Assembly (NCBI GenBank): GCA_051362555.1
Contig: CM120641.1
Location: 48,552,401 to 48,616,400, forward strand
DNA: 64,000 nucleotides
Reading direction: 5' to 3'
From: Lingula anatina
Lineage: Eukaryota > Animalia > Brachiopoda
Numbering within the stretch: position 1 is the first letter of the stretch; each line of letters starts with the position of its first letter. The notes beneath the pieces were generated by a model that saw only the letters and a list, made by a program, of their open reading frames with translations, had not been told where the DNA came from and did not search any database. Positions 6,839-59,762 of this stretch are shown here, in pieces. Position numbers and translations under genes: made by a program.

Positions 6839-9121
6839 ATGGATTTCTTCTTCCTGCCTTCATGGGTAGTTGTCGTGTTGGTTGTAGCCGTTCTGACCAT
6901 CATCTACCTACACTACAGCTGGGACAACAGGCGCAAGTTTGGCCTCCCAGGACCAACCCCTTTACCCCTGCTTGGACATATAGTGGACATGATAAAATAC
7001 GGTCTTTGTGACTTCGATCTACATGTCACTAGGACCTACGGTAAGACGGCCGCCTTGTCTTCGGGGATATTCCTTAACATTCTGGGGGATATTATGATCA
7101 CAGACCCGGAAATGTTAAAGGAGGTGATGGTAAAACAGGCCAGCGTCTTCACGGACAGGAATGCAGATCCGGACACGCAAATATCGCCAGTGGACAAGTC
7201 GGTCTTTGCAGTAAGAGGTGAACCGTGGAAACAGGTGAGCCCTTGTCTCACTCATTTTCTTAAAATACTTTTAAGACCGCCCATGTATATTTATATAATA
7301 TAGTATTAAAGGTTAGTCTCAGTCCCCATTCCCAGAGATTAGATCGATCCAACTAGATCGACCTAACTCCCTGGGGGTTCACACTAAATAGCTGTCAGCC
7401 GAGCGGGCACTAAAGTTAATTACCCCCTTACAGCTTGTAGTAGGTGGGACGGACATTTAAGCCGAATTATCTGACAGTAATCTAGTGAGACTCCCCACGG
7501 GGATAGATCGATCTAAAATCTATGGGAATGCGCCCCTAGTAATCGCCGTTTGCATAATTTGACCTACTTATTGCACACTCCTTGATTTCAGTGTTTACTT
7601 TGCGTCACGCTCAGGGGGGCGGGGTTATGCCTGAATAACATGTTATGACATGTAGACCTATATATGAACATATTTATGGACCGCATAGCTTGTGCCAAAA
7701 CTTATAATAATATGCTTATTTAAAGACTAAAACGTTTGAACCAATTTAAAATGTTCAGTAGGCTTTACATGAGAACAAATAGCTAGGCCTTCTAAAAACG
7801 CAATTACCAAAATATGTAAGATTAAAATAATTATTAAGAAAGATCAATATTTAAAACTCATAAAACCAATTTCAAGTTGGATGATCAGTTATAGAATTTC
7901 CTTTAAAAATGTTTTGACTCCCTTTACAAAAAAAAAATAGGTCTGAAATGTTCTATTTTGTCGTTCTAGATGCGAAGTACGTTGACTCCAACGTTCAGTT
8001 CCGGGAAGCTTCGACACATGGAGGCAATGATTCTTAAGTGCGCTAACACCCTGATTGAAAACTTGAAGAAGAAAGCCAAAGCTGGAGAGAGTTTTGAAAA
8101 CAAAATCTGGGGTTGTTATACAATGGACGTGATATGTGCTACAGCCTTTGGAGTCGAGGTTGACTCGCTGAACAACCCTAACCACCCTTTTGTAAAAAAT
8201 GCAGAAAAAGCTAATGATATCAATCTTTCAGATCCTGCCGTTCTCCTCCTCTTTTTTGCACCTCGCTTGATAAAAAAGCTGGCACCCATCCTTCGGCACG
8301 TTCCTGGATTCCGTGGGGTATTGAGCTCATTCCATTACTTTGGAGAAACGACTAAAGCTCTTCTGGATGTGAGAAAGCAAGCCCAGGAAGGACACTACAA
8401 TGATTTTCTGCAGTTGATGTTGACTGCGCACACCATGTCCACGTCTGATCTGGGTGATGACGAGAAAGAGGTGGCAAAATGGAAGAAAAAAGCCCTGACC
8501 ACGGAAGAAATTGCGGGCAACGGGATGATTTTCTTCATTGCAGGTTTTGGAACTGCAAATGACACTTTAGGATTCACAACCTATCTCCTGGCCACCCATC
8601 CTGAGATACAGCAGCGACTAATACAGGAGGTTGATGATGTGCTGCAAGGTGCCGAACCCACTTACGACACTGTGTCAAAGTTGAGCTATCTGGAGCAGGT
8701 TCTGAATGAGTCGATGAGGCTTTATCCTGTTGGCATTCGTGTAGACCGTGTGGCCAACCAAGACACCACCGTGAACGGCTTATTCATTCCCAAGGGGACA
8801 GCCGTGGTAATTCCGATCTACGCCATCCACATGGATCCTGAAAAGTACCCGGACCCTGAGAAGTTCGACCCAGAGCGATTCACGCCAGAGGAGAAAGCAA
8901 AACGCAACCCCTACTGGTACATGCCCTTCGGTATGGGGCCCCGCAACTGTATTGGTATGCGTCTGGCCCTGCTCGAGATGAAGATTATCCTCGTGAAGGT
9001 CCTGCAGAACTTCACGTTGAAGACGTGTGCGGAGACACAGGTTCCTATGGTGCTCTCCAAGTCAAATCCAATGAAACCTGAAAAGCCAATAATTTTAAAA
9101 GTTGAGGAAAGATTTGTGTAA
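6839..9121 (+). CDS. Cytochrome P450, clan 3 (CYP3A-like), copy B; 2 exons, 515 aa
   Basis: Exon 1 6839-7234 (CAG|GTGAGC), exon 2 7970-9121 (ttctag|ATG). Same motifs as copy A; ATG 6839 is homologous to copy A start. Confidence 0.95.
7321..7536. mobile_element. Palindromic MITE (GGGxCCATTCCCA-type ends, PIF/Harbinger-like) in P450-B intron
   Basis: Ends cattcccagagattagatcgatc / gatcgatctaaaatctatgggaatg; close reverse-orientation relative at 16281-16500; absent from the P450-A intron. Superfamily assignment is inference. Confidence 0.75.
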
Positions 9122-12803: not shown

Positions 12804-12836
12804 TATTTACAGACCCTGGTGTATGTTGATATTCTA

Positions 12837-13030
12837 AGGGACCATTCCCAGACGCTATTATACTAACTGAAGATTGACTCCTAGGGGATTCTTACAGTTA
12901 CTAAATTGCAATCAACTGAAGTGGCTTAGATATCTGACACGCCTACTGAAGCTGCAAGGGGGTAATTTTAATAGTTAAAACGATTGTTTGGTAGCTTCAG
13001 TAGGCATGCAGGACATCTAAGCCGCGTAAG
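12837..13030. mobile_element. Truncated palindromic MITE (GGGACCATTCCCAG end) just after the DUF296 stop codon
   Basis: Strong similarity to 54106-54372; internal inverted repeat ggcttagat...cctactgaagct / agcttcagtagg...atctaagcc. Confidence 0.7.
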
Positions 13031-15169
13031 ATGGTACCTGCTGTCTCCTTGCTAAGCACTCAGCATATAGTAGAGGTTGAAATCGGGGGGAAAAAAGACC
13101 AGCACTGTAGAACAACTGGGTACATACCATCATGGCATGTGGAAGATAAGCTTGTGCTTAACATAATGTGCCAGCTTGGATACACTGTAATCTATCTTCC
13201 CATCAATCATTGTTACCTGTGGAGTCACTTGAGCAGGCCCATAGCCGGAGGGGGGAGGGATGTTCGAAGGTCCGTCACGGGGTCTCTGAGTTTCAGATAT
13301 TACCAAAACATCACCCTTCATCAGCAAATTTATATTTTGATTAAGGTGATCAAAGGAGAAGGATATTATATAAATAAATCTGTATGCTTTATGTCCTGTG
13401 CAGAGTTAGATGCGACAGAGAAGCTGTAGACGCATTCTGTCACCGCAGTCTGCACCGAGTCCATGTAGTCCTGAGAGCTTTATCAAATATATGTTATGCG
13501 CGTATCAGAGTTTTTTTATGTTCCTAACATAATTTATTTGAACTATTTTAGGAATGGTGTCGCGCTGATATTTCAGTGGCAATCAGGGATGTAGGTCTAC
13601 CGGTGTGTTACGTTGTTTCCCGTATATAGGGTCTTCGTTTAAAGAGAAGTGGGGAGGGGCAGAGAGGGGGAAAGGAAGTTTAGGAGTGTAATTAGGAGTG
13701 TAATTTACTTTGGCATCCATACATTGAGTGCGCCTTTATACATGTAATAGGAAGAGCATTGTGTTGCAGCAGCTGGAATACTGCTCAACTACAACAATGA
13801 ATACGAAATAAACGTTCAAGTTCCATGACGAAAAAAAAAAAAAAAAAAAAAGATCAACATTAGAGACCGCAAAATTTTCTTGCGTGCTCTTCTCTGTGTT
13901 CATATGCAGCCAGGGTTTCCAGGTAATAACTTCCCCCGCGGACAGTCAGGGACGCATGAGCCGAGTTACACCTGGCGAGGATCACGGCGTCTCGTCTTCT
14001 TGTTTTTTTGTCCATTTTGGTTTGGTAGGGAATTTTATGCTCGTCATGACTTCTAAGTATCACTTAAAGTCTTTTAGAATTCCCAGCAGAAGGTCTGAAT
14101 CACGAGCTTGTCCTTTAAGGCTGGTATCAGAATGTCAGTCACGGCGCCAGAGGGAGGATCATACTAGCATGTTTTATCTTCAGTATTACCCGATTTGAAT
14201 ACAATCACCTCTCTTTTCTCTCTGAATATTATATAATTTTATGGTCGAACATGCTGCTACCGTCTTTGCTCGTGGTCCCTGAATTTTTTTCTTTCATTTG
14301 ACTCGCCCTCTTCTATCTGTCTGCTACACATCGATAGTTTCCACACCCGTCTAAATTTCACTCTCTTTTCTTCTAATTCGTTTTATTTTATAGACGCACG
14401 AAACACCGGAGATAAGCAGATCCCAGTGGAGAGCAGTTCCTTGAAATTTGAGATAATTTGTCTTTATGAATGATGCTTATGGTCGTTGTGCGTCTCCGCT
14501 GGGATATCTCTACGGAAGAGATATGTTATGGTGAGCGACAGTTAACCTCGGCAAACGCTACACGGAGACCACTGCGCATAGCGCTAGGCACGCGGCCAAG
14601 GCAAAACGCTCAACAAATTGGAATTGTTGATAACAATGATGTGCGTCAGCCTTGACAGTTCTTAACTGTCAATATGTCAAAAGAAATAAAAAGATGTGGC
14701 CTGAAAAAGCCCTGATATAAAGATTATATATAAATAATGGTTGAATAAAGGACTGACTTTTGTTACAGTGAACTAAGCCAAATGCTACACAACAGAAGGG
14801 GTATTAAATAACTTAATACGTTCACCCTCTCTCTCTGTCGCCATATGACAAGGAAAAGTTGATCTCTGGCGATATATATATGAAGTTTTTAGAAACCTCA
14901 GTCATATCAGTGTATTCTGAGATACAATCTATCGTAATATTATCCTTTTAAATAGCACGTATTTTGTTTTGACTGCTTGAATTACAGATATTGTGAAAAA
15001 GAAAAAAAATTCTTTAACTTATGTGCTTCTGTTCACAATTCAGAATAAATAAAATATCTATTTATCTATGGAGTTGTTAATCTGGTATCTTTTAAATACG
15101 AAGAGATGGCACCCTACTATAATCTTGGGGTGTGTCAGAAACCCTTTCAGGGGATCTATAAAGAGGAGA

Positions 15170-16280: not shown

Positions 16281-16500
16281 AGAGTGCATTCCCATAGATT
16301 TTAGATCGATCTATCCCCGTAGGGAGTTTCACTAGACTGTTGTCAGCCTGACCGGCTTAAATGTCTGTACCGCCTACTAAAAGCTGTAAGGGGGTAATTA
16401 ACTTTTGTGCGCTCTCGGAACCTGACAGCAATTTAGCGTGAACCCCCAAGGAGTTAGGTCGATCCGGATAGATCGATCTAAATCTATGGGAACCCAGTCT
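16281..16500. mobile_element. Palindromic MITE, same subfamily as 7321-7536
   Basis: cattcccatagattttagatcgatctatcccc ... gatagatcgatctaaatctatgggaa; collinear reverse complement of the P450-B intron copy. Confidence 0.75.
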
Positions 16501-49482: not shown

Positions 49483-49590
49483 AGGGACCCTTCCTAGAGC
49501 CTATTGTACTTACTTTGGCTCGATCTGTCTCCAAGGGGATTCTCACTAAATTGCTACCAACTGATGCAGCTTAAATGTCTGTCACGCCTG
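49483..49590. mobile_element. Half-copy of the GGGACCATTCCCAG MITE family
   Basis: agggacccttcctagagcctattgtact...ggggattct...gcttaaatgtctgtcacgcc aligns with the left arm of 54106-54372. Confidence 0.6.
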
Positions 49591-50712
49591 AAAATGGAAA
49601 AGAACAAGCACTTGTTGTAGCATGCAGTTGCTCAGGATATTACTCCAATCCGTAGAATAATAAAGGAGTTCCGAGAGGAGGAAATTGATTTGGAATAAAA
49701 AAAATCGTGACAACGGGGCCTGTGCACCAGTACTGCAGCACGTGCCCGTGAACTCAATCGGGGTGCGGGTATCGTTGGGTACAAAATCGCATATTGAAAC
49801 ACAATATTGGATTATTAAATGGCGTTACACAACAAACATAAAGTGAGTTAATTTCAAAATATAAGGATTGCGGAGATCTATAAAAGGGATAACTTGCGTG
49901 AGAGGGACAGGGAAAGGCCAACTTCTCAAGGAAAACCATGACCCCATGTCGCTGACAGTACACGCGCAATCACAAACAATTCACAAGGAAGGGGGCGATT
50001 GGACAGGGATCGCGACTGAACGAAAATTTTCCATTGTTAACGTGGAAAGCACCTAGTTTGCTATTACCTATTTAACGATGACATCAGCATAATGTTATCA
50101 AAATCAGATTTCTTGTAGGTAACATCTACACGTATATCGACTAAGAAGTATATTATCTAGTACATACTTTATGTTCTCGTTTCAGTCGTCGCCTCTCGTC
50201 TTATTTCATGTCGGTGTTGCTCTCCTTTTGTGGGTCAATCCAGAAATGCGAAATGTTTTCATGTATTTTAGAATAACGTGGACAGGAGAACCAGGTTGAA
50301 CAGATTGCTACCTTTGATAACAAATTGCGGTACGAGCACCGCTAACACAATGTCCACTTAGCACAGCGCCGATCTACACCTGTTCACTTTTATTATATTT
50401 TGGTAATTCTAGGAACAACAATGTGCCATTTTCTTCCGGGCGATTCTTTGAAGACAAAACCCAAACATTGTCTACTACTGTTTCAATTAACAAGGATGTT
50501 AAGGAGTTAAAGGCACCTTTAGTAAGAGATGTCAGTGTGGAAACTTTGCATTTTATCTGGAGACTACTCGAAAGCAAAAAGTAACGAGTTCCTTGCGATC
50601 AGATTTTTCCAAGGACTGGTGAAAATAAAAGGTATCCATTAACCACATACCAGTCTTGTTTGAAGATCCACATCAAATCACCGTATAGATCTTAAAGAAG
50701 TAAATAAGTTAT

Positions 50713-50858
50713 AATACTGACGAATCTCTGAAGATCTATAAAGATGTAATATGTAATCCAAGCTTTCGGCCGCTAAAAAATCCTTGAAGGCATAGGGGCC
50801 GAAAGCTTGGATCATATATTACATCTTTATAGTAGATCTTCAGAGATGCATCAGTATT
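50713..50858. repeat. Long hairpin (~60-bp arms, ~25-nt loop)
   Basis: aatactga...atctctgaagatcta...aaagatgtaatat...atccaagctttcggcc mirrored by ggccgaaagcttggat...atattacatcttt...tagatcttcagagat...tcagtatt. Confidence 0.9.
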
Positions 50859-50887
50859 CTTGTTTTAAGAAACAAACAAAGCTCATT

Positions 50888-50916: not shown

Positions 50917-51960
50917 ATTTAAAGTGTGCTGCGAGACAAATACAATTTTTTCCTTTACAAATAATATAAAGTTTATAGAGAACCAAATTATTTAGAATGC
51001 TCTCGTCGGAACTAAAACAATACAATACTACAAGTTGACTATGACTGAACTATTATTATTTATATTAAGGCTTTTGAAGTTATCAGAAAATAATGAAGAA
51101 TTGGTGGCTGAAAGCCTATATAAACTTATGTATCAATGTTTTTTTTTTACATATTTTTCACCCTTTGTCTAAATATTGATGTTTCCAACTAGAATGCAGG
51201 ATTAGAACCTTGCTGCTCTTTGCACTGGAGGCAGGACAACGATATAAATAGAATATTGCATTTTTTTGTTTTAAAAAAATTAAAGAAAAGGTGAAAAAGG
51301 ATCCTTAGCACATCCAAGCAAATTCCACAAGGTCCCTGATCACTGGTCCAGTTATTAGATGAACAAGGGCCAACAACTTGAATCTTGAAGCCTCCATCTC
51401 TCGTGTTCACTGCTTGCATAGACTTCTTCCTTCCGTCCCATGATCTGAGAGAACTCTTCCAACCATTTCATAATATCTTTTTTTAAATATTGTTTTTGAT
51501 AGTTTATAAAACAATGTTTTAATCACAGAGTACGATGTCTGGGTATATCATTATTACTAGACGCCAGCTGACTTCAGTTTTCTTTTTTTTTTTTGTTTGT
51601 TTGTTTTCTGCTGTGATCAAGTCCACTGGAAAGATTGAAGAAGCGTTGATAAGGACAAAACAACACAGACAAGTTGCAAAGTTGAATGAAAATATGCAAT
51701 TCCTAGACGAATTCTAACATGAAATCCACCCATCAGAATCTGGCAATTGTACACATGGTCTTTACTGTGCGGGATCATATCACTTGGCGATGAGTGGAAA
51801 ATGTATCTATGAGATCATTCCTTCCAAGTTGATTACAGATTTGGTCAATCCAAGTTCCGAATTCAAGGTATGTAGTCGGGGGATCCTGGTTTTTCATTGC
51901 ACCCGATCAAGACACTAGAATTGCATACTTTCAAGCAAGCACCATGAAAAGACAAACTGT

Positions 51961-54900
51961 CTAACGTCTTGGCCCGCCAAAACTCCCTCCTCGTCCTCCG
52001 CGATTGTCTGGTCTGCTTGCACTGCTCCCTCCCCCACCACGCCCTCCGCCACGCCCAGGTAGAGGGCCAGCGCCACGTCCACCCCCGCCAAGGCGATCTC
52101 CACGCCCCACACTGCTACGTGGGTTACTGCCCGGTCGGCCACTCTTCTTTTCCTCTACGTTCAAACGATGTTCTCCTTTATACATTATTGGCTGGAAAAA
52201 CAAAACCAAATCAATTTCAAAACTTGGGCATCATAGCAGTTGAAAAACACTTTCATGGCATATTAATTAACACTCGAGTCTTACAAAAGAGTCTAATTTT
52301 AATTAAATGTATTATGGCTCAGACTCCTTAACGAGTACAATAAAAGGAAGCTGCTCTCAGCAGGAATCAGAGAGGGCAAGTTCCAATCATCACTGCCATA
52401 TAACTACTGTGACACTTTTTACAGTGATATTTCAATCAGTCTTAATTTCTTGGACTGCTCACACAATATCCCACCATCAAAACCGTCAGTTACATGCACT
52501 TAACCTGCCCAACACACTCACCTTTTCACTGAGAATTTTCTGAACTGGCTCTGAACTTTCAAATACCACAAACCCAAACCCCTGCAATGAACACAGAACA
52601 AGTTAGCGCTTAATGCAGCTGGAGTGGCCAATGTTATTGTGTTATCTGTAAATTTGGTTGAAAAGTTGACAACGCACACCACAATTACAACATTACAGTT
52701 AATAATTTTTTCTGTTAATACTTCATGTTTGAGTAGAAATGTGTCACTTACAGGTGTTTTAGAAGCACCGGTGTTCTTTGTGTTGATTCTCAATTCCAAG
52801 ACTTTGCCAAATGCTGAAAATAAAATGTAAATGATTTACAATGTGATACATTCAAAAAGAAAGAAATGACAGATATCTTAGCTAAACAACTAAGATCAAA
52901 GTAGCACTGTCATACAGAAGACTTCATAATGGGAAACTTGTGCAACATCTTGAAGACGATTATTTTAGTCACAAGACTTGCTCTTATAAGCACAAAAAAA
53001 CAACTGGACAGTCTTGTGCTGTCTTACAATAAAGTGCTTCTATATTCCTTTCGGAGTGATTCACCCACTTAAATTTTTATAAGAGGGTAACTTCCAGTCA
53101 TTACTGTCAGTGTTTAGTTTTCAAAATGCATTTACATGAATGTTCACAAAAAAATTTTTTGTGACGATCATAATATGCTACATAAAAGCCCAAGACTGAC
53201 AAATCACTCACTGTCAAAATATGCTCGAAGGTCCTTCTGTTCAATGTTGTGGGGCAGGTTGCCCACAAATAGTTGCTGGTTGTCCGGATACCTTGAAGAT
53301 GGTCGGCTCCCACGTTCTGGATCTGCATCCTCAGGACGCGGCGGCCTGTCTCCACGGTCGCGCCTGTCCCTTTGGGGTCTGGAAATAATAATATGTCAAA
53401 AGTAAGCTCAACTGAAAACAATTAGGCATTGTCAATTTCTGTGTGTAAGACTGAGTATAATGGCAAAGTCTTCCTGCACAATACCACAGTGCTGTATCGA
53501 TTTAAAGGCATACTGACTTCTAAGCTACATAGGAATTAATATCATTATCAGGGTTCTTTATAAAGAAATAACATTTGTGTTTGCAAAATTACTGAAACTA
53601 AAGTGCACTCAAGGTAGAATTCCAAAACTGTATTAAGTATTATAACCAATACCTATCATGCAACCACTTCACCAGAAAGACTATCACCCTAAAACTGAGA
53701 TTTAATGGACAAAGTTTTTGGTCACCAATACTATGTCAGCATGCAAGGAGAGTGAAAGAGAATGAACTCCACTCTCATTAATTTATATATCCCACACCCA
53801 CACTGGGTTGGCTGTTAAATATTAATTGCTGTGTTAAAGTTTAACCACCACCACCATCATCAGAAAACATCTATAATGTATCACTGAGGGATAACAAGAC
53901 ATTTTGTGAATAATTACACCAAGGGCATATATGAAATGCAAACACCAAACTGGGCAAGCATACCTCATGGCAATAATTTGTACACAATGCAACTGAAAAA
54001 ACTCGCTGACAAATGCCCAATCTGCAATATCTCATGCAATGAAAATTTTAACCAGAAATAATTTACAAAGACTGAGGATGCAGTGTTAATTAATACAGCT
54101 GTTAAAGGGACCATTCCCAGACCCTATTGTACTAACTGTGGATCGATCAAACTCCATGGGGATTCTTGCTAAATTCCAATCAACTTAAGTGGCTTAGATG
54201 TCTGTCACACCTACCGAAGCTGCTAGGGGATAACTAACTTTCGTTAATTATCCCCTAGCTGTTTCAGTAGGCGTGACAGACATTAAGCTACTTAAAATGT
54301 ATTCAATTTAGTGTGAATCCCCATGGAGTTAGATCATTCCTGCTGGAATGATCTAGGTCTGGGAACGGGGTCAAAGTAAAAGAAACCAAGCAAAGTGTCC
54401 ATGCCTCATGTTGTCTGGAGCTGACCTGGGTCCTCGCTGTGGCTGCGGTGGTCCACCTGGGGGACCCTCCAACTTGGGCTCCATTTTGACAGGGGGCACC
54501 TTGGCGGGTCCCCCTCCGCTGGCAGCCACACCTGAACCACCACTGCTGGTATTCTTACTGGCGAGAGCAGCCCATGAGAACGGCTTCGTCTCCACAGGGA
54601 ACGCTGAAGATAACAAAGTTACTGATTACATCCAAGTTATAAAAACTTATTTTATGTAAGAAAACCAAATATTACAAGTTAAATCAAAATAAGTAACTCC
54701 ACCAAATCTATATATTTTTTAGACTTCTTTAACAAATATAGATTACGGGATATCCAAAATGAAGTTCATGTCAATTCATTTGTGCTTTATTGGACAAGTT
54801 GTAATTCCAAGAAAATTGTCATGGAGAAAAAATATTTTCACTGACTCAGACTCCTTAATGAGTACAATAATGAAGGAAGCTGCTCTCAGCAGGTGTCAGA

Positions 54901-57900
54901 GAGGGCAAGTTCCAATCATCACTGCCAGTATTATCAAGGTGCTAATTAGGATCATATTGTACTCGGAGTATGTTGGTTAACACCTTGTTAAAAACAGACT
55001 GAATGCGAAGAGGTTGACAATTACAATCAAGTAGCAATACTTCCCACTTACAAATCAACGCCAATCTTCTCCCATGGCTGTAATTATCAGCTATAGAGAA
55101 CCACCTGTTTCCACCTCAGAAACACAATCCTACTTAGCAGTGGGAGCATGCCAAGTAGCTTATTGCTATGTGACGTCATTTGTCTGACAATATATTGGTA
55201 ACAGGGGCATGTGCCAGCTTGAGGGATGTTTCCAATTCCAGAGATGAAATAAACTTCTCTCACCTGGCTGTTCAGTTTCCGCCTCTGCCTCAGTAGATTT
55301 GGGGCTGTTGTCCACCTCAAAGTCTTCGTCTTGTGGAGGCACCTCCTCAGGAACATCTTCCTCTACCGGTTCCTCAGTGGGTGACTCCACCTGATCCTCC
55401 ATGTGGACACTGCCATTACTGGAAGCAACACATCAATACAATGGGCTTTGGTAATAATCTATGTGATCACACTGTCCACATACTAACTTATGTACACATT
55501 ATAAACAGGAAAATTCTGTGATCTGGGCAAATATTCGATGTCATAACATTTTCCACATAATAACCCATGGATACAAACAGGAAAATTCCATGCTTTGACC
55601 CGAGAGAGATGGTTTCTTGATCATTGCTACTAGGACATTATTTGCTCTCTGTTTTTACTTAAATGCATGTAACTATCTATACAATGTACTGTTGCATGTT
55701 AATGAAAGCTTTTTTAAGTGTCAAACACCTCTAGAACCCAATATGAAAGAGGGTTAAACAAAACTCTGACACATCACAATCACCTGTAAAATGTCTAGTT
55801 GTTCACATTTATATGAAATACAGAAAAAAACTGATCACTTAGACACTGGTTTAAACTTCCTTTTGTTCTACTATGCTCAGTCATGTATTTGTCTTCAAGA
55901 CGGAGAGATGGGTCTATGACAGCAGGCAACTGTCACCATGCAACACCAATCCGGCGCAAATTACATCATCATAGCACTGTTTAAGTCTTACTCAAATATA
56001 ACATATTTTGTATTCTCAAAAGTAACATACACATATTAGTATTAATTTGGACCCCCAACCCCTTATTCCATTCTGTAATCTTTTTGTGCCCCTTAACCAA
56101 TTACCTCATCGGCTGTGGTGATGGCGCAGTGTCAAAAAACGATGTTGTCACTGTTGGATCTTGAACATTTTCTGGGAGAACAGCAGCATCATTCGTGTCC
56201 GTCTCAGATTCTGAAAAAGTACAAACAACTGAAAAAAACAAAAAGACTCTGCATGAAGCAGGTAAATACATTTAGGACTGCTTTATTTTTATACTTATCT
56301 ATACAAGGTACTACAAAAAACAAAAGTTTTAAATACGACTGTCGTCTTACCCCCATTCTCTTCCAGGTTGTCTGGGTCATTATCATCATCATGGAACACC
56401 TCGTCCTGGTAGCGAAAGATGTCATTGTGTACGTAATACTTCTTAGGAGACTGCGGTGCTAACACAAACGTTTGCATGAAGCGACGCATTGGTTCACCGT
56501 TGTTGGACAACTCTCCCGTCACCTAAAAAATTTAAACAAGAGTTGCAGTTTCGATTTAAAAATACCACCACCAATTTACAAATATATTCTTAAAACCACG
56601 ATTCTATGTAAACTGAAGTGAAGAACAGTTTTAGTTGATTTTAATATATAATGGCTCAGACTCCTTAATGAGTACAATAAAAGGAAGCTGCTCTCAGCAG
56701 GAATCAGAGAGGGCAAGTTCCAATCATCACTGCCATGCAAGTCCAGATTCCAGATAAATCTTATCTTATGTAACTGTCTTACCTGTACAACCACAGCGCT
56801 TCCTACTGTGGCCTGGCTGTCTACCTGGCGAATCTTAGCGTGACAATCTCGGAAATTGAGGGACATGATCTTCTTATGTATTTCCTAGAAGATGAAGGAG
56901 AGGAATCTTATTTCAAGGTAATAAATTATGCCAGCAGGTATTCTAGCGTCATCAATAGCATGTGATCTGAAGTGTCTCTAGTGCCTTCTTCTAGACAGCC
57001 TTATCTCTTATTTATCACTGAAGGATTCTTAGATGGCTAAAATAAATTGGATATTCTTCTTAGACTTCAGCCAAATGTAACCTTAAATATTTTGCGAAAG
57101 TGTCTTATAGTTAAGATGCCATTAAATGTTTCTTTAAAAAAATTTCCACCATTTCTGCATCAAGAACTTTTGTAAAATGGACTTCAAAAACTTTGTCAAT
57201 TCATAACGTAACAATTTTCCTAGTCATTTACAATCAAGAAGAGAATGATTATCTAAGTTAACAGCAAACTGACACCTAATGTAAATTGAAAATTTAATAG
57301 AATTCGTACCATTAGTGCTGCTGCAAGAGAAACGAGGAATTCAGACTTTGTTTTCTTTTGTCCACACAAACTTTTTAAATATGAAAATTGTGATAACTAT
57401 GGTCTACAGTTAGTGTACTTGTGATACAATAAACACCACTGGTAATCAGTTTTCACTTACACCTTGCCCCATCACTGGTGGCTGTTCTTCACCAGGCTTC
57501 TCCACCCCGCCATGAACAAAACTGGAGTTGTGGCTGTAGAATCTGCAGGATAAATATCAACATATGATAAAGGTTTTGAATTCTCAAGAAAACTAAATCA
57601 TATTTGTCTAACATACTAAATATTATGTAATATAAATATACTTTCTATAAATCTTTCAATACATATCAACTGTCATAATATATGCTGCCTTCAATATGCT
57701 CAGTCATGTATTTGTCTTCAAGACGGAGAGATGGGTCTATGACAGCAGGCAACTGTCACCATGCAACACCAATCCGGCGCAAATTACATCATCACAGCAC
57801 TGTTAAGGTCTGATTTCATGTCTGGCTCAGCAACCACACGTAATCTTTTGTGCTCATAGAGATATACTCTTTTTGCGATGTACATCATCCAACTTACATG

Positions 57901-58331
57901 GGAACAAATTCTATACATGTATACTTTCATTTTCTGTGTAACCAAAGCTCAACCAACAGTTCCGTAATAGTTTCTTTACTACTTATTCAAAGTCAGGCCA
58001 TTAGAGGCTTTATTGACCTACCCCACTGCCACACATTCCATATTGTTTAAACTATGCAACCATCTTTACACCAAAGCAGATCATGTTGTCATTTTGGTTA
58101 AACTGACTACATATTTTTCGTCATAAATTTCAACGTGGCATGCTCACACTGTAAGTCTCTATTCAGTATAAACATTATCAATGGAAAATTGCCAGCAATT
58201 CAATATTCTCAGAAGCTGTGTGGTATTTTGTCTTACCTGTGTAGGTAACTGGGTGCCTCATGAAGCAAGGTATAATACTGCCTGACAAATTCACGGCCAA
58301 CACATTGAGGACTGGGGGTTTCCATGACCAT
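51961..58331 (-). CDS. G3BP: Ras GTPase-activating protein-binding protein (stress granule assembly factor, Rasputin homolog); 11 coding exons, 469 aa
   Basis: Exons 58331-58237, 57542-57461, 56884-56783, 56522-56351, 56210-56105, 55418-55264, 54603-54426, 53378-53212, 52813-52752, 52581-52522, 52191-51961 join in frame (1410 nt). [23 protein letters not shown] start, NTF2-like domain ([31 protein letters not shown]), acidic region, FSWA motif, RRM ([24 protein letters not shown]), RGG tail. Non-coding exon 1 ends at 59112. Confidence 0.97.
52316..52397 (-). ncRNA. Box C/D snoRNA, SNORD103/SNORD85-like, copy 1 (G3BP intron 11)
   Basis: Minus strand GGCA-GTGATGA(C)-TTGGA-ACTTGCCCTCT-CTGA(D')...TTGTACTCGTTAAGGAGT-CTGA(D)-GCC, terminal stem TTATGGC/GCCATAA; guide is antisense to conserved 18S GGAGGGCAAGU. 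Confidence 0.88.
52905..53021 (-). ncRNA. Candidate box H/ACA snoRNA (G3BP intron 9)
   Basis: Hairpin CACAAGACT...AGTCTTGTG, H box AAAATA, weaker second hairpin CTTCA...TGAAG, then ACA+3 nt ~90 nt before the acceptor. No target identified. Confidence 0.35.
54106..54372. mobile_element. Full-length palindromic MITE (GGGACCATTCCCAG end) in G3BP intron 8
   Basis: Nested inverted repeats: ccattcccagacc/ggtctgggaacgg, aactccatggggattc/gaatccccatggagtt, tgtctgtcac/gtgacagaca, gctaggggataa/ttatcccctagc. Confidence 0.8.
54843..54926 (-). ncRNA. Box C/D snoRNA, SNORD103/SNORD85-like, copy 2 (G3BP intron 7)
   Basis: Same C, D', D boxes and guide as copy 1; differences fall outside boxes; terminal stem ACTGGC/GTCAGT with one G-U pair. 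Confidence 0.88.
55874..55976 (-). ncRNA. Box C/D snoRNA, SNORD16 (U16)-like, copy 1 (G3BP intron 6)
   Basis: Minus strand TGCT-ATGATGA(C)-T-GTAATTTGCGC-CGGA(D'-like)...GACAGTTGCCTGCTGTCA...CTGA(D)-GCA; guide antisense to 18S GCGCAAAUUAC; internal hairpin matches recalled vertebrate U16. Confidence 0.88.
56653..56734 (-). ncRNA. Box C/D snoRNA, SNORD103/SNORD85-like, copy 3 (G3BP intron 4)
   Basis: One visible substitution relative to copy 1; stem ATGGC/GCCAT. Confidence 0.88.
56958..57073 (-). ncRNA. Candidate box H/ACA snoRNA (G3BP intron 3)
   Basis: Hairpin CTGAAG...CTTCAG, H box AAATAA, second hairpin (TCTAG...CTAGA upper stem), ACA+3 nt ~73 nt before the acceptor. Confidence 0.4.
57697..57799 (-). 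ncRNA. Box C/D snoRNA, SNORD16 (U16)-like, copy 2 (G3BP intron 2)
   Basis: 103 nt matching 55874-55976 except the purine of the C box (GTGATGA vs ATGATGA); flanking intron is unrelated beyond a few bases. Confidence 0.88.
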
Positions 58332-59111
58332 GACTTAAGCTTTTATGAATGATCTGCAACAAATAGAAAATTGGATTAGAATTCACATTTGATAACTCAC
58401 ATGAAAACAGTGCTTTCATTTTGTTTTATACAATGGTGTCAAAGAGATCAACTAAAGATAGTCACTGACCCTGTTAAACAATTTAATCAATATTTGACTT
58501 CAATATGGAACAAATAACAAAACAATCTGTGAAGTGTTTCAGGAAATAATATTATAGAAACTGACAATCCCCTGTACCAGGAAAGGTTTGTCTCTGTCGA
58601 GTTACTAATAAAACCACCCACTGGTTGATAATAACAAGATAGCCCGGCTGATTCACAACCGCGGAGATTAATCGGTGCATCAGTGTTGCCTTATCACCAG
58701 CCTTTGTGTTCAAACACCATAAACAAAGACGTAGCTCAGTTTCAATATTGAAAGTACGTTCATCAACGAAAAGTTACAAGATTACAGGTAAAATATCCGC
58801 CTCGAGTACCTGTAGTTTCGTTTACTCTAAACCTATCTAACAACATCGATACAAACTCGGCAACCAATTATGGCGATTTCTACCCGTAATAGATCACATC
58901 CCACATGATTAAGTGGTAAAACTTTCTGTTACCAGCAAACCCTAATAAAACATTTCAGAACAAACCATTACATAGACAACTGGTGCCATGTAGAGTGTTC
59001 ATTGTCAGTCAAAAAGCTACCGTCGTCATTGTGTGAAACCCGTCGTATTCTAGTCACAGTAGTATCTAGCTAAAAAGTTATGTTAACACGTGATCGCCCA
59101 CGTTTTCTTAC

Positions 59112-59762
59112 CTTTCAGACCAACCTGGAGAGTCTAGATGCTCTGTTACACTAGATAAGCATTAGAATATAAGTTTTAGTATTTAAATATTACAAGAAAA
59201 GTCGATTTTTTCGAAGAAATGAATTTTCGCACATGCACGATGCGCAGAAGTGTTCTTGTTCTTAGAATGGCGCGCAGATCCTGTCGGCCTCCCTTCGGTA
59301 GGTTCGAGAAAACCCCATATACTGAGGGTCACAAACATGTATTTTGAAAATCATCTCCAATATTTATGGTATGAGGAAACTGTACATCGTACAGGATACG
59401 TAACTTGTTATAATTTTTGTTTAAAAAGACATTGAGATCGTTACTTAAAATCAAAATGCAATTGCTGATATATTTTAGATCATAATTTTATATATACATT
59501 TTGTAGGCCCCAAGATCTTTGATTTACGCGATGTGCGAAACAGATTTCTATAATGTTTTATCAGACGTTAACATATTAGTGTAAATAATAAAAATATGAC
59601 TTAAAACAAGGTTCTAATATATCATTATCAAATACTTTATCACAGTTATATTTTTATCATTGAAATGATATAAACACATCTTGAGCCACTACGCCATGTA
59701 AATCTCAATTTTCAAAATCGACGCACGCGCAGAGAACGGTTGCTACTGTGTTGTTGACAAAG
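59112..59762. promoter_or_regulatory. Likely bidirectional promoter region including G3BP non-coding exon 1
   Basis: G3BP exon-1 donor at 59111 (-) and divergent ATG at 59763 (+); local CpG clusters (cgcacatgcacgatgcgcag, atggcgcgcag, cgacgcacgcgcag) and AAGATGGCGG YY1-like site at the plus-strand start. Confidence 0.5.

What the first reader, a model, noticed from the sequence alone, without database searches (positions are those of the whole stretch)
52316..57799. G3BP is a multi-snoRNA host: at least five C/D snoRNAs, one per intron, all aimed at the 5' domain of 18S rRNA
Seen: two repeat families confined to G3BP introns (2, 4, 6, 7, 11), all on the host strand, with identity ending at terminal stems and with C/D boxes intact. 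Known: intronic snoRNAs are processed from host pre-mRNA; as I recall vertebrate SNORD16 is in RPL4 and SNORD103/85 in PUM1, not G3BP. Inference: the stress-granule nucleator, which binds 40S subunits, is co-transcribed with guides that methylate the 40S rRNA, a host arrangement I do not know to be described.
Basis: partly seen in the sequence, partly recalled or inferred. Interest (0 to 1): 0.8.

Follow-up and report, generated by a model that had tools for sequence, protein, structure and literature searches.

The report
Five snoRNA guides inside brachiopod G3BP
Five introns of this brachiopod's stress-granule gene G3BP each carry a copy of one of two known small guide RNAs that are predicted to add methyl marks to ribosomal RNA; this is an ordinary arrangement, and other animals keep one of the same guides in several other genes, so G3BP is likely just a convenient host.

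Summary
Observation confirmed. The gene is G3BP of a Lingula brachiopod, and all 11 introns are spliced in RNA reads. Introns 2 and 6 hold SNORD16 (U16) homologues; introns 4, 7 and 11 hold SNORD103/85 homologues. All five lie on the host strand with C, D' and D boxes and terminal stems, and score just under Rfam's cut-off. They predict two 18S marks (human Am484 and Gm601 equivalents), each with a second pairing element of the kind published for U16 and U103. No sixth copy was found; mature RNAs were not shown.

The 40S-coupling idea is not supported. Of 35 partly redundant metagenome loci, SNORD16 sits in RPS23 (20), an hnRNP-D-like gene (10), G3BP (2) and RPL4 (1). G3BP1/2 already stand in a published table of snoRNA host-gene groups. 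In the annelid-like G3BP, two SNORD16 paralogues appear re-aimed at 28S rRNA.

Modest new points: SNORD16 shares G3BP intron 6 in a brachiopod and an annelid-like animal, and SNORD103/Gm601, tabulated only for vertebrates, appears in a protostome. Verdict: new members of a known kind, interest 0.3.

The parts
51961..59250 (-). G3BP host gene, 12 exons. Non-coding exon 1 ends at 59112. Coding exons: 58331-58237, 57542-57461, 56884-56783, 56522-56351, 56210-56105, 55418-55264, 54603-54405 (GC donor) or -54426 (GT donor), 53378-53212, 52813-52752, 52581-52522, 52191-51961. NTF2, acidic, RRM and RGG regions.
   Evidence: Gene model; Pfam NTF2 and RRM_1 on single exons; exon 5 is 98% identical to a Lingula anatina G3BP, and the 476-aa model matches that protein by eye; 11 of 11 introns seen as joints. 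The 5' end is approximate, from read ends at 59239 and 59250.
57697..57799 (-). SNORD16-like snoRNA B1, intron 2. Box C 57795-57789, guide 57787-57777, D' (CGGA) 57776-57773, extra pairing element 57751-57741, C'-like 57721-57715, box D 57703-57700. Predicted target: Am484 equivalent.
   Evidence: Rfam RF00138 40.7 bits, E 2.7e-5; pairing
56652..56735 (-). SNORD103/85-like snoRNA A1, intron 4. Box C 56730-56724, guide 56718-56708, D' 56707-56704, C'-like 56700-56694, extra element 56678-56667, box D 56659-56656. Predicted target: Gm601 equivalent.
   Evidence: Rfam RF00188 26.2 bits, E 0.06; 93-99% identical to A2 and A3; pairing
55874..55976 (-). SNORD16-like snoRNA B2, intron 6. Box C 55972-55966, guide 55964-55954, D' 55953-55950, extra element 55928-55918, box D 55880-55877. 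An annelid-like animal has SNORD16 in the same intron.
   Evidence: Rfam RF00138 43.4 bits, E 5.1e-6; intron position and phase shared with L084 and L081
54840..54929 (-). SNORD103/85-like snoRNA A2, intron 7. Box C 54922-54916, guide 54910-54900, D' 54899-54896, extra element 54868-54857, box D 54849-54846; 7-bp terminal stem.
   Evidence: Rfam RF00188 31.2 bits, E 0.0026
52313..52399 (-). SNORD103/85-like snoRNA A3, intron 11. Box C 52393-52387, guide 52381-52371, D' 52370-52367, extra element 52341-52330 (one A-to-G change that leaves a G-U pair), box D 52322-52319.
   Evidence: Rfam RF00188 30.8 bits, E 0.0035

Best explanation
G3BP in this brachiopod carries two SNORD16 and three SNORD103 homologues in five of its spliced introns, which are likely cut out of the introns, loaded into fibrillarin particles and predicted to guide two 18S rRNA 2'-O-methylations (human Am484 and Gm601 equivalents), with G3BP likely serving only as a broadly expressed host. 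Shown: the boxes, stems, orientation, one copy per intron, splicing of the host, family likeness and complementarity to eukaryotic 18S. Inferred from the known pathway: release from the spliced intron, exonucleolytic trimming to the C/D kink-turn, and methylation of the base paired to the fifth nucleotide upstream of box D'. A second antisense element would hold the pre-rRNA beside the target: directly 5' of it for SNORD16, about 30 nt 5' of it for SNORD103. Extra copies likely arose by duplication within the gene. The host is likely exchangeable (constrained drift), although SNORD16 has probably stayed in G3BP intron 6 since the brachiopod-annelid ancestor.
For: 5 of 5 strict C/D hits in 64 kb are these copies. 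Likeness stops near the stems, and the A copies have different but still pairing stem ends. On 14 SNORD16-type sequences the terminal stem plus inner hairpin are 92% paired, covariation score 0.347, 0 of 500 shuffles as high (relatedness inflates this control). The 18S loci were fetched with the two guide complements, so the guide match is built in; what is not built in is that 5 of 5 tested are Rfam eukaryotic SSU rRNA and that the unsearched extra elements match: SNORD16's in 49 of 51 loci, SNORD103's in 43 of 51 (12 nt) or 44 of 51 (10 nt), while shuffled snoRNAs give any 10-nt match to the segment in 36 and 29 of 3000 trials. The same pairings are labelled SSU_484 and SSU_601 in the zebrafish table. 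Extra pairing is published for U16 and U103 (PMC3116282). Hosts vary: RPS23 20, hnRNP-D/AB-like 10, G3BP 2, RPL4 1, unassigned 2 of 35 loci, which fall into only 5 clusters by shared flanks. Several C/D copies in one host is the usual pattern (PMC8178906; PMC2653536).
Against: No mature snoRNA was seen. All five score below Rfam's gathering cut-off, A1 only at E 0.06. Single-sequence folds are no more stable than shuffles (z -0.45 to -1.16). Lingula's own 18S was not available, so targets rest on other eukaryotes; in the most animal-like proxy (L010, my reading) the SNORD103 extra element pairs over 10 nt, not 12. The copies lie 121-455 nt from the 3' splice site, farther than the roughly 70-80 nt optimum I recall for mammals. 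Retention in G3BP intron 6 across two phyla is longer than free drift needs, and it rests on one other animal.
Confidence: 0.85

Rival explanations
1. Functional coupling: G3BP, a 40S-binding stress-granule protein (recalled), is selected to co-produce guides that methylate 40S rRNA.
For: Both Lingula families target 18S. SNORD16 lies in G3BP intron 6 at the same codon and phase in Lingula and an annelid-like animal.
Against: SNORD16 is in RPS23, an hnRNP-D-like gene and RPL4 in other animals, and its counterpart is in dachs in Drosophila. SNORD103 is in PUM1 or ctps1a in vertebrates and was not found in the parts of the annelid-like G3BP held (introns 5 and 7-11 and part of 6). Two G3BP-hosted paralogues there match 28S. 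An unchecked earlier AI note reports an LSU-directed H/ACA guide in G3BP introns of another genome.
Confidence: 0.08
2. Some copies are silent duplicates, kept alike by recent duplication or gene conversion rather than by selection.
For: B1/B2 and A1/A3 are 99% identical; the intron 4 and 11 copies share flank likeness beyond box D; B2 lies 455 nt from the 3' splice site.
Against: All five keep every box and guide; differences between copies fall outside them. Three variant letters seen within B1 in 3-4 of 5-6 pre-mRNA reads of one run also miss the boxes and antisense elements.
Confidence: 0.12
3. The repeats are short transposons or chance intron duplications, not snoRNAs.
For: A real palindromic MITE-like element sits in intron 8, with other copies in the window. 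No whole genome was held, so copies outside the window could not be counted.
Against: The copies are confined to G3BP introns within the window, all sense, match Rfam snoRNA families end to end, and have homologues above Rfam's cut-off in introns of other animals (11 of 12 SNORD16 hits in 7 loci tested).
Confidence: 0.01

Closest known systems
SNORD16/U16 (Rfam RF00138; yeast snR87), guide for 18S Am484
   Same: D' guide, inner hairpin carrying the 11-nt extra pairing element, C' position, about 100 nt, two intronic copies
   Different: Host is G3BP, not RPL4; D' reads CGGA; 40.7-43.4 bits, just under the cut-off. The alignment read in PMC3116282 (supplement part 24) holds only vertebrates and Ciona.
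SNORD103/SNORD85 (Rfam RF00188), guide for 18S Gm601
   Same: D' guide and box, three intronic copies in one host as in chicken PUM1, and an extra pairing element (U103 is listed among snoRNAs with one). A 10-nt stretch after D' is shared with zebrafish SNORD103 (by eye).
   Different: Host is G3BP, not PUM1 or ctps1a; found in a protostome, whereas the six-species table marks Gm601 only for human and Xenopus; low Rfam scores (26-31 bits).
Multi-snoRNA protein-coding host genes and 'constrained drift' (PMC3511168; PMC8178906; PMC2653536)
   Same: One snoRNA per intron, sense strand, families duplicated within one host, host differing between lineages. G3BP1/2 groups are listed in the host-gene table of PMC3511168.
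   Different: That table does not say which species or snoRNA, and has no lophotrochozoan column. This snoRNA-host pairing was not found in print.
Antisense-element shuffling among snoRNA paralogues (PMC6984369)
   Same: Paralogues in one host acquire new targets, as the two L084 copies appear to
   Different: In L084 the guide and the extra pairing element changed together, from an 18S to a 28S site.

Membership tests
Box C/D snoRNA | Box C (RUGAUGA) near the 5' end, box D (CUGA) near the 3' end, short terminal stem | tested here: met
   5 of 5 copies, stems 4-7 bp; covariation in the SNORD16 set
Box C/D snoRNA | 10-21 nt rRNA complement directly upstream of box D or D' | tested here: met
   11-nt guides abut D' (CGGA or CUGA) against 18S proxies; Lingula's own 18S not tested
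Box C/D snoRNA | Stable processed RNA bound by fibrillarin, and methylation of the target | not testable with these tools
   Only PolyA, oligo-dT or unspecified 150-nt paired libraries were listed
SNORD16 (RF00138) | Rfam score at or above gathering (45 bits) | tested here: not met
   43.4 and 40.7 bits, full-length, E 5e-6 and 3e-5; the L081 and L084a homologues pass at 49.3 and 52.8. Filed as homologues, not as Rfam members.
SNORD16 (RF00138) | D' guide for A484 plus hairpin-borne element pairing at 470-480 | tested here: met
   layout as in the PMC3116282 alignment
SNORD103/85 (RF00188) | Rfam score at or above gathering (45 bits) | tested here: not met
   31.2, 30.8 and 26.2 bits. Filed as likely homologues; convergence on the same site is not excluded.
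SNORD103/85 (RF00188) | D' guide for G601 | tested here: met
   Same guide and D' as zebrafish SSU_601
Intronic snoRNA host gene | snoRNA on the sense strand inside an intron that is spliced | tested here: met
MITE or SINE | Dispersed copies in either orientation with long terminal inverted repeats | tested here: not met
   No copy outside G3BP introns in the 64-kb window; the rest of the genome was not held

The most novel reading that the evidence does not exclude
G3BP is an ancient lophotrochozoan snoRNA host and nursery: SNORD16 has stayed in its intron 6 since the brachiopod-annelid ancestor; SNORD103-guided Gm601 predates the protostome-deuterostome split and was lost in flies; and in an annelid-like G3BP, SNORD16 duplicates were re-aimed at a 28S site with no methyl mark listed in six model species, by changing both antisense elements together.
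Probability: 0.45. Interest if true: 0.5.

Novelty: new member of a known kind. Interest (0 to 1): 0.3.

Why it matters
The five RNAs fall below Rfam's cut-off, so automatic annotation would likely miss them. They extend the hairpin form of SNORD16 and probably SNORD103/Gm601 to lophotrochozoans, where my searches found no snoRNA survey. They add a data point on how long a snoRNA stays in one host intron. The re-aimed paralogues in a related locus are a natural test of whether guide and extra pairing element evolve together. The finding does not support a new link between stress granules and ribosome modification.

Tried and rejected
Rfam at gathering score found nothing in the window. No whole genome is held, so there is no genome-wide copy count. 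No RNA holder was listed among indexed runs. Seven different PolyA, oligo-dT or unspecified runs plus one more (8 of 9 listed) were laid on the gene: intron depth was 0-5 with no discrete peaks, which says nothing about 85-100 nt RNAs in such libraries. The 18S pattern found nothing in viral contigs. That pattern required a CNGA D' box and an exact hairpin, so it misses many homologues. A D-box guide in family A was rejected: the element ends 7 nt before box D, and the 10-nt match unique to A3 is perfect only in non-animal-like proxies (38 of 51), has a G-U at the fifth position in L018 and is absent in L010. No 28S target next to a D or D' box of the five copies was found in the LSU proxies. 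A crude H/ACA scan gave one candidate overlapping the MITE edge, not pursued. One search used a misregistered structure and is replaced. One search had one exon in the wrong frame and is replaced. My first reading that all non-G3BP loci were hnRNP-hosted was wrong; most are RPS23. My first idea that the re-aimed copies take the SNORD95 site was wrong; the site is 41 nt downstream in the 2 of 4 LSU proxies where it could be measured. Literature searches for G3BP as a snoRNA host or for lophotrochozoan snoRNAs (listings only) showed nothing relevant. RefSeq, Ensembl and snoRNA databases could not be consulted.
Full report
Observation. The window holds G3BP on the minus strand. An exon model gives an open frame of 470-476 aa with Pfam NTF2 and RRM_1 on single exons. 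Exon 5 is 98% identical to a protein named Lingula anatina G3BP, whose sequence matches the model by eye. RNA reads show joints for 11 of 11 introns. Two repeat families lie in introns 2 and 6 (family B, 103 nt) and 4, 7 and 11 (family A, 84-90 nt). A strict C/D scan of both strands of the window gave 5 hits, and they are these copies. Cores are 92-99% identical and flanks 41-53%. Models built here found no further copy in the window.

Identity. Rfam gives nothing at gathering score, but full-length matches in E-value mode: SNORD16 at 43.4 and 40.7 bits and SNORD103 at 31.2, 30.8 and 26.2 bits, against cut-offs of 45. Family B keeps the U16 layout seen in the PMC3116282 alignment: guide after box C, a D' box, a hairpin whose loop and 3' arm pair with 18S 470-480, C' and D. 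Its stems covary across 14 homologues. Family A keeps the SNORD103 guide and D' and shares, by eye, a further 10-nt stretch with zebrafish SNORD103. Single-sequence folding is unremarkable, which is expected for C/D RNAs from general knowledge but gives no support.

Targets. Lingula's 18S was not available. By the fifth-nucleotide rule the guides mark the positions labelled SSU_484 and SSU_601 in the zebrafish table. The extra elements were not in the pattern and match in 49 of 51 (B) and 43-44 of 51 (A) loci; shuffles give any 10-nt match in about 1% of trials. Such extra pairing is published for U16 and U103 and can raise methylation up to five-fold in yeast tests. So five RNAs predict two marks. 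Am484 is conserved in all six species tabulated in PMC11014333, and Gm601 only in human and Xenopus; zebrafish also has it. A BLAST-mapped row for this site in PMC3511168 shows 10 positive genomes whose column names I did not see.

Other animals. One metagenome scan with a SNORD16 pattern gave 35 distinct loci in 5 flank-sharing clusters. Hosts were RPS23 in 20, an hnRNP-D/AB-like two-RRM gene in 10, G3BP in 2, RPL4 in 1 and unassigned in 2. The G3BP loci L084 and L081 group with Platynereis and Lamellibrachia proteins in a quick tree (SH-aLRT 94, not starred; 27 rows chosen from 120 hits). They carry four SNORD16-type copies: one in intron 5 and three in intron 6, assuming both contigs are one gene. 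Intron 6 has the same codon and phase as in Lingula. No SNORD103 was found in the parts held. Two of the intron 6 copies have guide and loop element both changed to match 28S. In print, SNORD16 is in RPL4 in chicken and zebrafish, SNORD103 in PUM1 or ctps1a, and the Drosophila Am441 guide is in dachs.

Mechanism. Shown: anatomy, host splicing, complementarity, homology. Inferred from the known pathway: release from the intron, trimming to the C/D motif, fibrillarin-guided methylation, with the extra element stabilising the duplex. Copies likely multiplied within the gene, the usual route for C/D families. Host choice fits constrained drift. The 40S-coupling rival gets some support from the shared intron 6, but is contradicted by the many other hosts and by the 28S-directed copies in G3BP. 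Expression of the mature RNAs could not be tested with the runs listed.

What is known. G3BP has 0 occurrences in the main text of PMC3511168, PMC6984369, PMC7668251, PMC2653536 and PMC8178906, in the supplement of PMC6984369 and in 12 of 17 supplement files of PMC7668251 (5 not searched); rin/rasputin has none in the Drosophila tables. But G3BP1 and G3BP2 are rows of an orthologue table in PMC3511168, which I take to be its Additional file 3, the list of snoRNA-containing gene groups; it does not say which genome or snoRNA. UBAP2L is a conserved host in vertebrates; that it is a stress-granule protein and that G3BP binds 40S are recalled. An unchecked AI note reports H/ACA guides in G3BP introns of another genome. 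What I saw of each paper: PMC3116282 passages, a supplement search and supplement part 24; PMC3511168 passages, section 16 and supplement rows; PMC6984369 passages and supplement rows; PMC11014333 supplement rows only; PMC7668251 passages and supplement rows; PMC2653536 and PMC8178906 passages; all others search listings only. bioRxiv supplements and annotation databases were not seen and may list these RNAs.

Verdict. A real, correctly described cluster of new members of two known snoRNA families in a known kind of host arrangement. The specific host pairing, the lophotrochozoan SNORD103 and the re-aimed paralogues were not found in print and would be of modest interest to snoRNA specialists. 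Interest 0.3.

Noticed in passing
L084:1322-1423 and L084:2028-2129 (intron 6 equivalent of an annelid-like G3BP): Two SNORD16 paralogues (Rfam 40.5 and 45.2 bits) have both antisense elements changed. The D' guide is a perfect 12-nt complement of an LSU rRNA site in L091 (1 of 4 LSU proxies; one mismatch in L088 and L090), and the loop element matches the 6-7 nt just upstream. The predicted A lies near human 28S 2856-2857 (inferred), where the six-species table lists no mark between Um2837 and Cm2861. The animal's own 28S was not seen.
   Followed up: partly
L069/L070/L074/L075 and the 29-locus cluster: In a group of related animals SNORD16 sits in RPS23 introns and in introns of an hnRNP-D/AB-like gene, which in these four overlapping loci lies about 4 kb downstream of RPS23 on the same strand. 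This suggests a short hop between neighbouring hosts.
   Followed up: partly
window 54105-54340, 49483-49589, 12836-13033, 7360-7389, 16355-16402: Palindromic MITE-like element in G3BP intron 8 with other copies in the window; RNA reads from other loci pile on it in both directions.
   Followed up: partly
window 50705-50866: A second long palindrome downstream of G3BP, probably another small transposon.
   Followed up: no
window 54404/54425, 56228, 53376: Alternative splicing of G3BP: intron 8 uses a GC and a GT donor 21 nt apart, both common; intron 5 has a minor acceptor 18 nt upstream. One run also shows a joint 53376-54403 with odd ends, probably the GC junction misplaced.
   Followed up: partly
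runs X7, X8 on window 51300-59300: These runs differ from the window at many fixed exon positions while carrying the same species label, suggesting a diverged population or cryptic species.
   Followed up: no
L001-L051, L087-L091: Many prokaryotic assemblies in the genome collection carry eukaryotic rRNA contigs (contamination); they served here as rRNA proxies.
   Followed up: no
window 53976-54129 (-): One crude H/ACA-like two-hairpin candidate overlapping the MITE edge in intron 8; no Rfam support.
   Followed up: no
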